Source of the DNA: Rhina ancylostomus
Lineage: Eukaryota
Reading direction: 5' to 3'
Assembly: GCA_030265395.1 (NCBI GenBank)
Contig: JARFYF010000001.1
Coordinates: forward strand, 67,631,604-67,695,603
Length of the DNA: 64,000 bases
Each line of letters opens with the position of its first letter. Within the stretch, counting starts at the first letter, position 1. Both the position numbers and the translations under genes were made by a program. Positions 4,351 through 9,631 of this stretch are shown piece by piece. The notes beneath the pieces are model-generated. The model saw only the letters and a list, made by a program, of their open reading frames with translations, was not told the DNA's origin and did not search any database.

Positions 4351-4637
4351 TGTACCGAAGTGCCACGCACTGAGCTAAGAATGAAACATGCAGTCAGAGG
4401 TCTGAACTCAAGTCTAGTTTATTGATCAGCTTCCCGTGCTAGCTTTTAAACCAGGTGAAAAGCCCACCCTTTCCGGATGGAAGTGACACCCACGGTACAT
4501 CACCAACATTTCCTGCGCGCGGGCTTTCTCTCCTCAGTCGGAGAAGGCGGCCTGGCCCCATTTTGCGGCCGGCCTTCCTGCAAACGTGTGCTCCGTTCCT
4601 GGAGCCAGTTCGCTTGACTTGAAGGTAGGTCGCTGCA
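4351..4637 (-). mobile_element. Gypsy LTR (3'-side copy), same family as 9362-9631
   Basis: TGTACCGA...TCGCTGCA termini; collinear with 9362-9631 (about 85% by eye, many CpG transitions, one ~20-nt indel); minus-strand AATAAA near 4420; preceded by GTAT. Confidence 0.92.
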
Positions 4638-4682
4638 TTGCATTGATTAACAAAGTCTGATCTTTTCATTTCTCCAAAGTAG

Positions 4683-4799
4683 AATTTTTCAAATGCACAC
4701 AGCACAATAAGTCACTCATTAAGCAGAATTTCAGAATTATCACTGGCAGGGAGTGACGGAGATCGACCAACAAATAAAGAGGAACTCTTAACTAACCAG
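4683..4799 (+). CDS. Candidate coding exon A (117 nt, phase 0-0) of an unidentified gene: NFSNAHSTISHSLSRISELSLAGSDGDRPTNKEELLTNQ
   Basis: Acceptor tcttttcatttctccaaagtag|; donor CAG|gtaaaa; open frame spans AG to GT exactly; phase matches exon B. Confidence 0.6.
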
Positions 4800-5399
4800 G
4801 TAAAAGTACAACCGATTAAGGCAATACCAGATTCAGTGAAGTAAAATGAAGTGTGTCACCAGCACAGTGGGGGTCCTTGAACCATGTGCATTTATATTTC
4901 AAGGTTCGGGGTAAGTTTTGGGCATATGTGATGCAGTGGAGTTCAATTGTGTCCTGGGCGTGATATTTAGAAATCCCCCTAGGCAGGAGGAGGAAAGAGC
5001 TATTTCAACACCAGACCATGCTCAATCAAAGACGACCTCACAGCAGTGTGATGGGAGGAATCACAGACCTGGAACAGTGGCGTTAGTGTTGCTAGTTTAG
5101 GCAATGCATGGTTGGAAGGAGGAGGCTTCCTGTGATTCATAGGGTATGATGAGGGAGGTTTTAGGGGAGGTTTGTTTATTCTGGGGACTGAGGGTGGCAG
5201 TCAGGGGAGAGCTTGCCAATCCCAGTAGGGCTTGTGAGAATGGTCTGGTCATGGAAGGCAAATAAGTTAACCTGGTGGTTAGCATCCAATGAATGAGCTG
5301 TCTTTTATTCCCTTTAGCTACTGAGTTTCCTACGGATGATCACGTTAAATCACTTGGCCCATGAACTTCTGAAGGGTAAATGGGATTCTTGAGTCATAG

Positions 5400-5760
5400 C
5401 GGATTATGGCACAAAGGGGAGGGGGCCATGGGGCAGCAGTAAGATGATTGTCGATCATTGTGTAGGTAGTTGGTGATTGCTGGGCTTTTGGAGATTGCTA
5501 GGAACTATGATCCAATGTTTGCAAGAAGGGTATGGAGTTTTGGAGGAATCGGTGATTGCTGTGTGGGGTCAGTGATGGGGAGAGGAGGAGGGTGGGAAAG
5601 ATTGACTGACTGATCGCAGCTGAAGGAGGGTGAACGATGGCAGATACACTTGGTGATTGCACATATGGGTTTCAGAGATTAGTTGGTGATTGTGGGGTGG
5701 GAGAGGGGAGTGGTATTCTGCGGAATTATAAGGAGCAAAGAAGGTTGATGACCGACCTTT
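5400..5760. repeat. Degenerate G-rich minisatellite-like tract
   Basis: (T/C)GGTGATTG recurs near 5470, 5551, 5651 and 5683 in G-rich sequence. Confidence 0.45.
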
Positions 5761-6128
5761 TAGAGATTTATAAAATCCTGAGGGGCATTAACTGAGATGG
5801 ATTATCAGTCTTTTTCCCAGAGTAGGGGAAGGTAAAACTGGAGGGCATAGGTTTAAAGTGAGAAGGGAAAGATTTAAAGGGGATCTGAGGAGCAGGTTTT
5901 TCACACAAAAGGTGGTGGATGTGTGGCAGTAGCTGCCAGAGGAAGTGGTAGAGGAGGGATACCATTACAACATTTAATAGCCATTTGGACAAGTTCATGG
6001 ATAGGGGAGGTTGAGAGGGATGTGGGCCAAATGCAGGCAAATGGAACTAGCTCTGAAGGCACCTTGATCGCATGGACAAGTTGCGCTGAAGGGCCTGTTT
6101 CTGTGCTGTAGAATTCCATGACTCTCTG
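5761..6128 (+). mobile_element. CR1/HER1-type LINE 3' end
   Basis: GGGCATAGGTTTAAAGTGAGA..TTTTTCACACA..; tail GAAGGGCCTGTTTCTGTGCTGTAGAATTCCATGACTCT. Confidence 0.9.
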
Positions 6129-6175
6129 ACTTTTTTTAAAAGAAATTTTTCTGTTCCCGCTTACAAATATATCAG

Positions 6176-6352
6176 GAGAGAACTGATTCCAAACTTGACT
6201 TGCCAAATGAAGAACCCCAAGAAGGACAGCTAAAGGTTTCATTCAGTAAGACAGGAATCTCGACACTATTTGTGGATCAGGTACTTCTTGGAGACAATAT
6301 GAAAGTTGAAACCAAACCTCTTGAAGTCAGTCGTCAAGAAAGTTATCAGTGG
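6176..6352 (+). CDS. Candidate coding exon B (177 nt, phase 0-0): ERTDSKLDLPNEEPQEGQLKVSFSKTGISTLFVDQVLLGDNMKVETKPLEVSRQESYQW
   Basis: Acceptor ttttctgttcccgcttacaaatatatcag|G; consensus donor TGG|gtaagt; 59 sense codons span AG to GT exactly; protein-like composition; too short for the ORF track. Confidence 0.7.
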
Positions 6353-6507
6353 GTAAGTGTTAATGATTGATCAAAACTTGAGTTATCATGCCAAGTGTTT
6401 AATGATTTGGACATAAATAATAAATCCTCCTCCTTATTTCTGATTTGGGTGAAGGTCAGTTTCACAATCTATTCCTTGGGTTATCAAGCAATGTTAGTGT
6501 CTCCAAG

Positions 6508-6860
6508 ATGTCAACACAGTGGTGCAGATGGTACAGCTGCTGTCTCATAGTTCCAGAGACCCAGATTCAATCCTGACCTCCAGTACTGCCTGTGTAGAAT
6601 TTGCACGTTTGCCCTGTGACTGTGGATTTCCCCCGGGTGCTCCAGTTGCTTCCCACAGTCCAAAGACAGACGTGTGGGCTGGTCTGTTAATAAACCACTG
6701 TAAATTGCTTCTGATGCATAGATGAGTGGTAGAATCTGGGGGATATTGATGAGACTGTGGGAGAATACAATGAGATTAGTAAATGATTAGTGTAAATGAG
6801 TGGTTGACAATTGGTTTGGAGTCAATGTGCCAATGGCCCAGTCTCCAGTCTAGGACTCTA
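6508..6860 (+). mobile_element. HE1/V-SINE-like tRNA SINE
   Basis: GTGGTGCAGATGGTACAGCTGCTGTCTCA..GATTCAATCCTGACC (A/B boxes); TTTGCACGTTTGCCCTGTGACTGTGGATTTCCCCCGGGTGCTCC central domain. Confidence 0.85.
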
Positions 6861-7165
6861 ATAATAAAGAGTGGTGGATTGAAAGGCCTGGGCAACTTGT
6901 CATCTATGTGCCCATTTCCAGGTGTAGTGTAATCCAATTTGTTCATTCCTGTTCATTCCTAATGCAATTTGTTCATTCCTGTTGCAACCAACCTGAGTGG
7001 TATATTCTATTCATCCAGCTTAAGTATGATCTGGAGTGAAACCTGTAGACTTTTCTGGCCACACCNNNNNNNNNNNNNNNNNNNNNNNNNNNNNNNNNNN
7101 NNNNNNNNNNNNNNNNNNNNNNNNNNNNNNNNNNNNNNNNNNNNNNNNNNNNNNNNNNNNNNNNN

Positions 7166-8645
7166 AAAACTCTGGGGGTTGCCAGCGCCCCTCGATGAGT
7201 TGTTCCAGCACCCCACCAACTGCTGTGTTGGACATGTCTACTGTGAGGGCGGTTGGGACGTCCGTTCTGGGGTGCACCAGCATTGCAGTGTTTGCCAAGG
7301 CTTCTTTGGCTTTAACGAAAGCAGCCGCGGCCTCTTCATCCCAAGTAATGTCCTTGCCTTTACCCAACATCAGGGTGAACAAAGGGCGCATGACTTGTGC
7401 TGCCAAGGGGAGGAAACAGCAGTAGAAGTCGACCACACTCACGAATTTCTGCAAGCTGTGGGGCGGGCGAAATGGCGGATCGCGTCTACCTTAGGGGGCA
7501 GGGGAGTTGCCCCGTCTTTGGTAATTCTGTGGGCCGGGAAGTCGATGGTGTCAAGTTCGAGCCGGTATTTGGCCGGGTCGATGGTGAGACCGAAGTCACT
7601 CAAGCGGGAGTAGCACAGGCAGAGGTGGGACAGGTGATCCAGGCAGTTGCTGCTGGCTATGAGGATGTCGTCTAAATAGATGAACACAAAGCCCAGGTTG
7701 TGTCCTACGGCATCAATCAGCCACTGGAACATCTGTGCGGCATTCTTCAGGCTGAAAGGCATCCGAAGGAACTTGAACAGGCTGAATGGGGTGATGAGCA
7801 CTGTCTTGGCGATGTCTTCAGGGTGTACTGGGATTTGATGGTATCCCCGGACGAAGTCCACTTTGGAAAAGATGCTCGCCCCGTGCAGGTTTGCCGCAAA
7901 GTCCTGTATGTGCGGTGGGGTTAACAGTCTGGGGTTGTGGCCTCGCCCAGCCGACAGTAGTTGCCACACGGTCTCCAGCCTCCGGCTGCTTTGGGCACAA
8001 TGTGCAGGGGGGGAAGCCCATGGGCTGTTGGACCTCCGTACAATCCCCAACTCCTCCTTCATCAGGCGGAGCTTGTCCGGGGGAAGCCGCTGTGCGCGGA
8101 GTGGTGGTCCCTTGGTCGTGATGTGGTGCTGTACTCCGTGTCTGGGTGTGGCTGCTGTGAACTGCGGTGCCAAAACCGATGGGAAGTCTGCCAGGGTTCT
8201 GGTGAATTCGTTGTCCAACAGCGTGACGGAGTCCAGGTGTGGGGCCGGCAACATGGCTTTGCCCAAGGAGAAAGTCTGAAAAGTCTTGGCATGTACCAGT
8301 CTTTTTCCACGTAAGTCAACCAGGAGGCTGTGGGCTCGCAAGAAGTCTGCCCCTAGGAGTGGCTGGGCCACGTCGGCCAGTGTGAAGTCCCATGTGAACC
8401 AACTGGCGCCGAACTGCAGCTGCACAGTGCGGGTGCCGTAGGTTCATATCGTGCTGCCATTTGAAGCCGAGGGTGGGTCCTAGCTTCCTGTTGCGGGTAT
8501 CATGCCCCGTCGGGGGTAAAACGCTGATTTCCACTCCAGTGTCGACCCAGAAGCGGCATCCCGATTGTTTGTCCCAGACGTACAAGAGGCGGTCCTGATG
8601 GCCAGCCGCCATAGCCATTAGCAGCGGCTGGCCTCGGTGTTTCCC
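7166..8645 (-). pseudogene. pol: Gypsy pol (protease-RT-linker), frameshifted
   Basis: ORFs 8316-8618, 7439-8425 and 7020-7454 carry successive pol motifs in shifting frames. Confidence 0.9.
8600..8645 (-). promoter_or_regulatory. -1 programmed ribosomal frameshift signal between gag and pol
   Basis: Slippery G-GGA-AAC (8645-8639) in the gag frame; 5-nt spacer; stem GGCCAGCCGC/GCGGCTGGCC (10 bp); the -1 frame reads into MAMAAGHQDRLLYVWD..DTG. Confidence 0.85.
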
Positions 8646-9310
8646 GGGAACTCACAGGGCAGGCAACACTGGTGGGCTTCTGCGCTCCACCGCTGGTGGT
8701 AGAAACACCACTGAACGTTGCCCCCCTCACTCCTGCCTCCAGTTGCGCGCGCTCCGTTGCCAGGCCTGGTCTGGTCTGCTGCTGGGGACGTGGCTTGGCG
8801 ATCTGTGCAACGGATGCCTCGCTTTCCCTCTTGGCCTTCCACAACACGTCTGCCTAGGCTGCTACCTTCCGGGGGGGTCACTGAAATCTGCATTAGTGAG
8901 TAGCAGATGTATGTCATCGGGCAGCTGCTCTAGGAACGCCTGCTTGAACATGAGGCAGGGCTTGTGTCCATCAGCTAGGGCCAGCATTTCATTCATTAGC
9001 GCAGATGGTGGCCTGTCCCCTAAACCGTCCAGATGCAGCAAACGGGTCCCCGCTCCTGCCGCAAGAGGCCGAAGGTGTTAATTAGCAGCGCTTTGAATGC
9101 TACGTACTTGCCCTCCTCCAGGGGCGACTGAATGAAGACCTCGACCTGGGCGGCTGTCTCCTGGTCAAGGGAGCTCACCACATAATAGTAGCGCGTGGAG
9201 TCGTAAGATATCTGTTGAATCTGGAACTGGGCCTCTGCTTGATCAAACCACAGTGGCGGACACAGCATCCAGAAAGTTGGCAGTTCAAGTGAAACTGCAT
9301 GAACAGCTGA
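8618..9310 (-). pseudogene. gag: Gypsy gag, frameshifted
   Basis: N-terminal AVSLELPTFW domain (ORF 9020-9361); C-terminal CFYHQRWSAEAHQCCLPC knuckle-like motif, ending GNTEASRC*. Confidence 0.85.
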
Positions 9311-9346
9311 AGGGGCGATCATCTTCGGTCCAAATCCCATTTGGAC

Positions 9347-9360
9347 CATTGGGGTCACCA
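9347..9360 (-). promoter_or_regulatory. Primer-binding site complementary to the tRNA-Trp 3' end
   Basis: Minus strand reads TGGTGACCCCAATG, 1 nt after the LTR; the tRNA-Trp PBS is TGGTGACCCCGACG, and both differences are CpG transitions. Confidence 0.85.
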
Positions 9361-9361
9361 A

Positions 9362-9631
9362 TGTAGCGAAGTGCCACGCACTGACCTAAGAATGAAACAC
9401 GCAGTTGGAGGTCTGAACTTGACACTAGTTTATTGATCAGCTTCCTGTGCTAGATTTTAAACCCAGTGAAAGCCCGCCCTCTCCGGGCAGAAGTGACACT
9501 CTTGCTGTGCACGGGCTTTCTCCCCTCGCTGTCAGAGAAGGCGGCCCGGCACTATTTTGCGGCCAGCCTTCCTGCCAACACGCGCTCCATTCCTGGAGCC
9601 TGTTTGCTTGAGTCAAAGGTAGGTCGCTACA
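9362..9631 (-). mobile_element. Gypsy 5' LTR
   Basis: Perfect 8-bp terminal inverted repeat TGTAGCGA...TCGCTACA; adjacent PBS; minus-strand AATAAA; followed by GTAT (9632-9635). Confidence 0.95.

What the first reader, a model, noticed from the sequence alone, without database searches (positions are those of the whole stretch)
4683..6352. Two orphan in-phase exons give a 98-aa open peptide of an unrecognised protein
Seen: exon A (117 nt) and exon B (177 nt) each fill an AG..GT interval with no stop and join in phase 0 over a 1376-nt intron, giving NFSNAHSTISHSLSRISELSLAGSDGDRPTNKEELLTNQ|ERTDSKLDLPNEEPQEGQLKVSFSKTGISTLFVDQVLLGDNMKVETKPLEVSRQESYQW. Both acceptors lie only ~45 nt downstream of a transposon end (LTR, CR1 tail). 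I found no equally convincing plus-strand exon elsewhere in the window and cannot name the protein. Inference: either part of a large-intron gene or a duplicated fragment that is still intact.
Basis: partly seen in the sequence, partly recalled or inferred. Interest (0 to 1): 0.7.

Follow-up and report, generated by a model that had tools for sequence, protein, structure and literature searches.

The report
Displaced exons of ray CatSper-tau gene
These exons are a stray piece of a gene 1.6 million bases away that resembles the sperm calcium-channel helper C2CD6 (CatSper-tau): one matches the exon missing from that gene, the other is likely its sister, and they most likely sit here through a draft-assembly misjoin at a jumping-gene repeat.

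Summary
The exons, phases and 1376-nt intron are as described. They are not orphans. Exon B matches, border to border, one exon of two ray proteins (60% and 56%). The rest of that gene lies at C1:69.166-69.348 Mb, 1.63 Mb away, behind the genome's only PF15729 (CatSper-tau) match. That locus lacks exon B and has a 2409-N gap where it belongs. Exon A has no protein match, but its closest DNA look-alike among 1,163 donor sites is the short exon just before that gap. In the window the pair lies antisense between SLX9 and ADAR2-type coding exons. It starts 45 nt inside a Gypsy LTR, where integrase and the polypurine tract should be. The stretch from LTR end to contig end is 2428 bp. One DNA run shows one copy at single-copy depth. 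Most likely the contig is misjoined through two LTR copies (0.62). A real templated insertion into the retroelement remains possible (0.27). No RNA data were available. An ordinary gene with low interest.

The parts
4683..4799 (+). Exon A: phase 0-0 short exon, likely a diverged sister of the short exons of the C2CD6-like tail
   Evidence: Open AG..GT interval. Best DNA look-alike among 1,163 donor-anchored windows is parent exon P, and 4 of the top 7 are exons of the parent gene. No significant protein match in 8 shark and ray proteins.
6176..6352 (+). Exon B: phase 0-0 exon homologous to residues 192-254 of XP_072900608.1 and 365-426 of XP_062907729.1; absent from the assembled parent locus
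4800..6175 (+). 1376-nt GT..AG intron with a CR1-like repeat at about 5750-6130
4351..4637 (-). Gypsy-family LTR (LTR1, TG..CA); outer flank GTAT; no polypurine tract and no matching target-site copy on its inner side; likely the junction point
4638..7065 (+). 2428-bp segment from LTR1's inner end to the contig end, single-copy outside its repeats; likely belongs in the 2409-N gap of the C2CD6-like gene (C1:69,267,040-69,269,448)
7166..9631 (-). Decayed Gypsy element: LTR2 9362-9631 with primer-binding-like site, gag-like (DUF7041) and RT (RVT_1) remnants, cut by a 100-N gap; outer flank GTAT

Best explanation
Exon B matches the exon missing from the genome's single C2CD6 (CatSper-tau)-like gene 1.63 Mb away, exon A is likely a duplicated sister exon of that gene, and the pair most likely appears here because the draft assembly joined two copies of a Gypsy LTR. 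In the real chromosome the order would be exon P, an LTR, A, B, exon Q. All of these are phase-0 exons that would add skippable Ser/Thr/Glu-rich modules to the long, probably disordered tail behind the N-terminal C2 domain. By analogy with mouse, the protein would help target the sperm CatSper channel to the flagellar membrane. The left part of the contig (1-4350) would be native DNA upstream of the ADAR2-type coding exons, next to the Gypsy element's own 3' LTR. Shown: homology, parent locus, gap, single copy, anomalous LTR. Inferred: the misjoin, use of exon A, function.
For: Homology exactly between splice borders. 14 of 15 and 10 of 11 genome matches of the two ray proteins lie at 69.215-69.348 Mb and the remaining one is exon B. 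PF15729 in the Narcine relative (3 of 4 proteins) and once in the genome, at 69.176 Mb. The parent has exons P and Q with 106-N and 2409-N gaps between them; the window segment is 2428 bp. Exon B is as conserved (57%) as the parent's other exons (medians 56%, n=18 and 12). Only 1 of 9,709,499 contigs of run X1 lies on exon B at 80% or more, and depth is 4.8 against 5.7 on the left flank, so no doubling. LTR1 lacks a polypurine tract and a matching inner flank, whereas 20 of 20 further copies are canonical. It shares 0 private variants with LTR2, against 3, 5 and 13 in three true pairs, as a hybrid would.
Against: A misjoin between random copies of a family of 200 or more would rarely pair loci only 1.6 Mb apart (about 0.2%, my estimate). 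The segment plus an LTR (about 2.7 kb) is some 300 bp longer than the gap. No contig-end overlap with the parent was found. No LTR is visible beside the parent gap. 20 of 20 other LTR copies and 7 of 7 exon matches of a control gene are in order, so misjoins are not common here. An X1 contig confirms the last 19 bp of the LTR joined to exon A's flank, and X1 neither bridges nor breaks the whole LTR. Exon A has no counterpart in the Mobula, Hemitrygon or Narcine models.
Confidence: 0.62

Rival explanations
1. Real templated insertion: a break in the Gypsy element was repaired from the C2CD6-like intron, primed at an LTR there, copying exons A and B with their intron into the element. The window copy would be a silent antisense passenger and the parent copy would be hidden in the 2409-N gap.
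For: Same-family LTRs in direct orientation with GTAT on both outer flanks. Same chromosome. Gap-filling capture with a cis bias is described for DNA transposons (PMC8277862, passages). The LTR end to exon-A flank join is present in X1.
Against: No second copy in the assembly or in X1, and no depth doubling. GTAT is a preferred target (3 of about 30 readable sites), so the flank match has only p of about 0.1. In PMC8277862, 56.9% of cases lie within 15 kb and 59.8% on the same chromosome, leaving about 3% distal in cis. Both frames and all splice sites are intact.
Confidence: 0.27
2. The whole 11,967-bp block between two 100-N gaps belongs in the C2CD6-like gene and was misplaced in scaffolding; LTR1 is a solo LTR with a damaged target-site copy.
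For: The block is bounded by 100-N gaps, lies in the same orientation as the parent, and LTR1 and LTR2 share no private variants.
Against: It needs a chance landing beside a truncated same-family element in matching orientation, with a matching flank. 7-12 kb cannot fit the 2409-N gap. All 5 solo LTRs keep both flanks.
Confidence: 0.06
3. The exons are part of an independent nested or second paralogous gene transcribed on the plus strand here.
For: Scyliorhinus canicula has two C2CD6-like proteins (P0030, P0032).
Against: Only one PF15729 match in the genome. No other tail exon within 200 kb on either side. The parent lacks exactly this exon.
Confidence: 0.03

Closest known systems
C2CD6 / CATSPERT / ALS2CR11 (Pfam PF15729), long form; Narcine bancroftii XP_069790195-214, Chiloscyllium plagiosum LOC122551910
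   Same: The parent locus has the PF15729 exons (42-94% to Narcine) followed by a tail that these proteins share up to a conserved C-terminal stretch. Exon B has a weak counterpart at the same place in Narcine (p=0.017).
   Different: Exons A and B lie in the tail, not the C2 domain. They match no shark or amniote protein among 33 tested. Exon A is absent from the relatives' models.
Mobula hypostoma LOC134348380 (XP_062907725-729) and Hemitrygon akajei XP_072900608.1, both named uncharacterized
   Same: Exon B 56% and 60% identical with the same borders and phase; the other exons map to the parent locus in the same general order.
   Different: These models start after the C2 domain and have no PF15729; exon P, not exon A, precedes exon B.
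Mouse C2cd6 / Als2cr11b (10.1101/2021.07.06.451342; 10.1101/2021.08.16.456347)
   Same: A C2-domain gene with long and short forms and a long downstream coding part.
   Different: Mouse Als2cr11b has one coding exon of about 5 kb, whereas the ray tail is many small duplicated phase-0 exons. No tail similarity to amniote proteins was found.
Single-copy Pack-TIR gap-filling captures (PMC8277862) and LTR-mediated retrocopies (PMC5131818, search listing only)
   Same: A host-gene piece lying between the ends of a transposon on the same chromosome as its source.
   Different: No parent copy is seen, the intron is kept, the polypurine tract is missing, the breakpoint is at the LTR end and the distance is 1.63 Mb.

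Membership tests
C2CD6 / CatSper-tau | N-terminal C2-type CTSRT domain (PF15729) in the gene | tested here: met
   At the parent locus, not in exons A or B: 26 bits against a cut-off of 24.4, the only match in the genome; two exons score E 1e-4 and 2e-6.
C2CD6 / CatSper-tau | Exon B is part of that gene's coding chain | tested here: met
   Border-to-border match in two ray proteins whose other exons map to the locus, which lacks this exon.
C2CD6 / CatSper-tau | Exon A is part of that gene's coding chain | tested here: inconclusive
   DNA likeness to exon P; protein-level p=0.13; no match in 8 relatives.
C2CD6 / CatSper-tau | Tail and C2 domain on one transcript | tested here: inconclusive
   Continuous in the Narcine and Chiloscyllium models, separate in the Mobula and Hemitrygon models; same strand and about 22 kb apart here.
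C2CD6 / CatSper-tau | Testis-specific expression and association with the CatSper channel | not testable with these tools
   No RNA holder listed; known from mouse.
Transposon-captured gene fragment (gap filling) | Host piece between the two ends of one element with a target-site duplication | tested here: inconclusive
   GTAT on both outer flanks, but it is a preferred site; LTR distance 0.15 equals the family background; 0 shared private variants; a 100-N gap intervenes.
Transposon-captured gene fragment (gap filling) | Parent copy retained at the source | tested here: inconclusive
   None found in the assembly or in X1, but the source has a 2409-N gap.
LTR-mediated retrocopy | Polypurine tract inside the 3' LTR | tested here: not met
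   Absent at 4638; present at 11 of the 20 copies (the other 9 are 5' or solo LTRs).
LTR-mediated retrocopy | Introns lost (recalled criterion) | tested here: not met
   The 1376-nt intron is present; antisense capture could also keep it.

The most novel reading that the evidence does not exclude
A Gypsy retroelement upstream of the ADAR2-type coding exons really took up a two-exon piece of the sperm-channel gene C2CD6 from 1.63 Mb away, in place of its own integrase and polypurine tract, by LTR-primed repair: DNA-level, intron-keeping gene capture by an LTR element in a cartilaginous fish.
Probability: 0.27. Interest if true: 0.45.

Novelty: new member of a known kind. Interest (0 to 1): 0.2.

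Why it matters
Mostly housekeeping. It names two 'uncharacterized' ray proteins as the likely tail of C2CD6/CatSper-tau and flags a probable misjoin in this assembly. It also shows that the ray tail is built from duplicated phase-0 exon modules rather than the single large exon reported for mouse. One search for papers holding CatSper, cartilaginous fish and C2CD6 together returned none. If the junction is real, it is an example of an LTR element filled with a host-gene piece at the DNA level.

Tried and rejected
Pfam on both exon peptides: 0 of 2. Word-index search of exon B among 105-2000-aa proteins: none, a sensitivity miss. ESM Atlas: best 0.87 to bacterial helicase-domain clusters, below the tool's useful level, rejected. 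P0005-P0007 (E 4e-8 to 2e-4) are summed weak hits to repeats in long fibre-like proteins, rejected. No RNA holder listed; X1 behaves as a DNA run and may be the source sample, so it is not independent. An apparent likeness between the parent gap's left edge and the LTR end scored no better than others among 292 contig ends. No overlap of contig ends with the parent. A search for an LTR end continuing into a polypurine tract found 0 (no proof of absence). Exon A against shark short exons: not significant. The control gene (PF11894) gave 7 of 7 matches in order, low power. Three partial LTR rows were dropped before counting private variants; the 32 comparison loci came from the 40 best-scoring of 205 candidates. 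No fold or complex prediction was run, as the peptides are short and low in complexity. Supplements of the papers were not read.

Full report
Observation. Both intervals exist as stated: 4683-4799 and 6176-6352, AG..GT, stop-free, phase 0, 1376 nt apart. On my approximate splice and composition score (frequencies recalled, not from a tool) they ranked 24 and 5 of 103 plus-strand candidates in the window, so sequence alone did not prove them. The window is G000:C1:67,631,604-67,695,603. Exon A, exon B and 4640-5700 each occur once in the assembly.

What exon B is. An unindexed search of 1.84 billion proteins gave 5 hits. Two are ray proteins, Hemitrygon akajei XP_072900608.1 and Mobula hypostoma XP_062907729.1, at 60% and 56% identity over the exon, starting and ending at its splice borders. 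The other three are repeat-driven chance hits. The Mobula protein retrieves Narcine bancroftii models (E 1e-78 to 1e-71) that carry PF15729, the CatSper-tau domain. The Narcine N-terminus retrieves 36 proteins, all with PF15729, mostly shark and amniote C2CD6.

Where the gene is. Searching the genome with the two ray proteins put 14 of 15 and 10 of 11 matches at C1:69.215-69.348 Mb on the plus strand; the odd match each time is exon B. The C2-domain exons lie just upstream, at 69,165,671-69,193,503, and hold the genome's only PF15729 match. In the relatives the order is short exon P, exon B, exon Q. The parent locus has P (69,264,785-910) and Q (about 69,272,283-483), both phase 0, no exon B, and gaps of 106 and 2409 N between them. 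Exon B's identity to the relatives (57%) equals the median of the parent's exons (56%).

Exon A. It has no significant protein match in 8 shark and ray proteins, and its protein likeness to exon P is weak (p=0.13). At DNA level it beat 1000 of 1000 shuffles against P, while 5 of 5,102 real windows scored higher. In a donor-anchored scan, P was its best partner of 1,163 and 4 of the top 7 were exons of the parent gene (hypergeometric 3e-5 to 3e-7, possibly inflated by shared coding composition). Exon B's best partner was exon Q. The tail is therefore built of duplicated short and long phase-0 exons, and A is likely one more short one. Whether it is spliced in is unknown.

Where the pair sits. 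Minus-strand dsrm and A_deamin exons lie 74-130 kb to the left and SLX9 exons 117-131 kb into the right flank. A CpG island at about 99 kb is probably the promoter of the ADAR gene; the name ADARB1/ADAR2 is my recall from its sequence. The pair is thus antisense and probably intronic. LTR1 (4351-4637) and LTR2 (9362-9631) are one Gypsy family in direct orientation, with gag and RT remnants on the LTR2 side of a 100-N gap and GTAT on both outer flanks. The family makes 4-bp target duplications, and GTAT is 3 of about 30 readable sites. Of 20 further copies, 11 have a polypurine tract, 4 a primer-binding site and 5 matching flanks; LTR1 has none of these on its inner side. It is 0.15 from LTR2, like unrelated copies, and shares 0 private variants with it, against 3, 5 and 13 in true pairs. 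From LTR1's inner end to the contig end is 2428 bp, against the parent's 2409-N gap.

Misjoin or real capture. Run X1, probably the source DNA, has one contig on exon B at 80% or more among 9.7 million and length-weighted depth 4.8 on the segment against 5.7 on the left flank. That fits one copy, not a recent collapsed duplicate; an old diverged copy could have been missed. X1 confirms the last 19 bp of an LTR next to exon A's flank but does not bridge the LTR's first 70 bp, which include a stretch well conserved across the family. A misjoin there would explain the matching outer flank, the missing tract, the lack of shared variants, the single copy, the intact frames and the gap size. Against it are the short 1.63-Mb distance, about 300 bp of excess length once an LTR is counted, no overlap or LTR at the gap edges and no sign that misjoins are common. 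A real repair-templated insertion explains the distance better but needs an unseen second copy; in PMC8277862 (passages) only about 3% of captures are on the same chromosome yet more than 15 kb away. A true deletion-type junction would remove 1.6 Mb including SLX9 and is unlikely (inference). I put the misjoin at 0.62, real insertion at 0.27 and whole-block misplacement at 0.06.

Function. In mouse, C2CD6 is testis-specific, has long and short forms and is needed for CatSper assembly and targeting (10.1101/2021.08.16.456347 and 10.1101/2021.07.06.451342; abstract starts and passages). Cartilaginous fishes keep CatSper (PMC6660944, one passage). The exons would add Ser/Thr/Glu-rich, fast-evolving, skippable spacer modules to the tail; one Narcine isoform skips the B-like exon. 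No specific activity is implied. Whether tail and C2 domain share a transcript here is open, as for mouse Als2cr11b.

Verdict. Real exons of a known gene family, out of place most likely through assembly. Interest 0.2.

Noticed in passing
L014:5025-5963 (-), L011:6513-6662 (-), L010:1233-1412 (-) and further exons to about 130 kb left of the window: ADAR-family gene (two dsrm domains, A_deamin exons in order); reads as ADARB1/ADAR2 from recall. Its first small coding exon was not found.
   Followed up: partly
G000:C1:67,749,065-67,762,917 (-); L028:6666-6773 and 7253-7312: SLX9/FAM207A exons; a second weak SLX9-like match with a stop lies at C71:9,526,184-9,526,375.
   Followed up: partly
L025, about 99.0-99.5 kb in window numbering; L022, about 65.8-66.5 kb: CpG island (GC 0.62, obs/exp 0.91), probably the ADAR gene's promoter; the weaker island at 66 kb overlaps a Gypsy gag fragment.
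   Followed up: no
L069:4412-4513 (C1:69,274,412-69,274,513, +): A further 102-nt phase-0 short exon in the C2CD6-like gene, with a donor region much like exon A's; not matched by the ray proteins used.
   Followed up: partly
L071-L075 (C1:69.290-69.337 Mb): The tail has several repeated exon types (two to three copies each), so it grew by exon duplication; shark tails carry different repeats.
   Followed up: partly
P0030 and P0032: Scyliorhinus canicula has two C2CD6-like proteins, one named 'futsch-like', apparently on the same chromosome.
   Followed up: no
window 17471-17589 (+) and L023:8068-8206 (+): Two further exon-like open intervals with charged peptides; no Pfam match and no match to the C2CD6 proteins.
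   Followed up: partly
L098-L129: This Gypsy family makes 4-bp target duplications with a preference for GTAT/GTAC/ATAN-like sites, and the assembly often breaks mid-element with a 100-N gap.
   Followed up: partly
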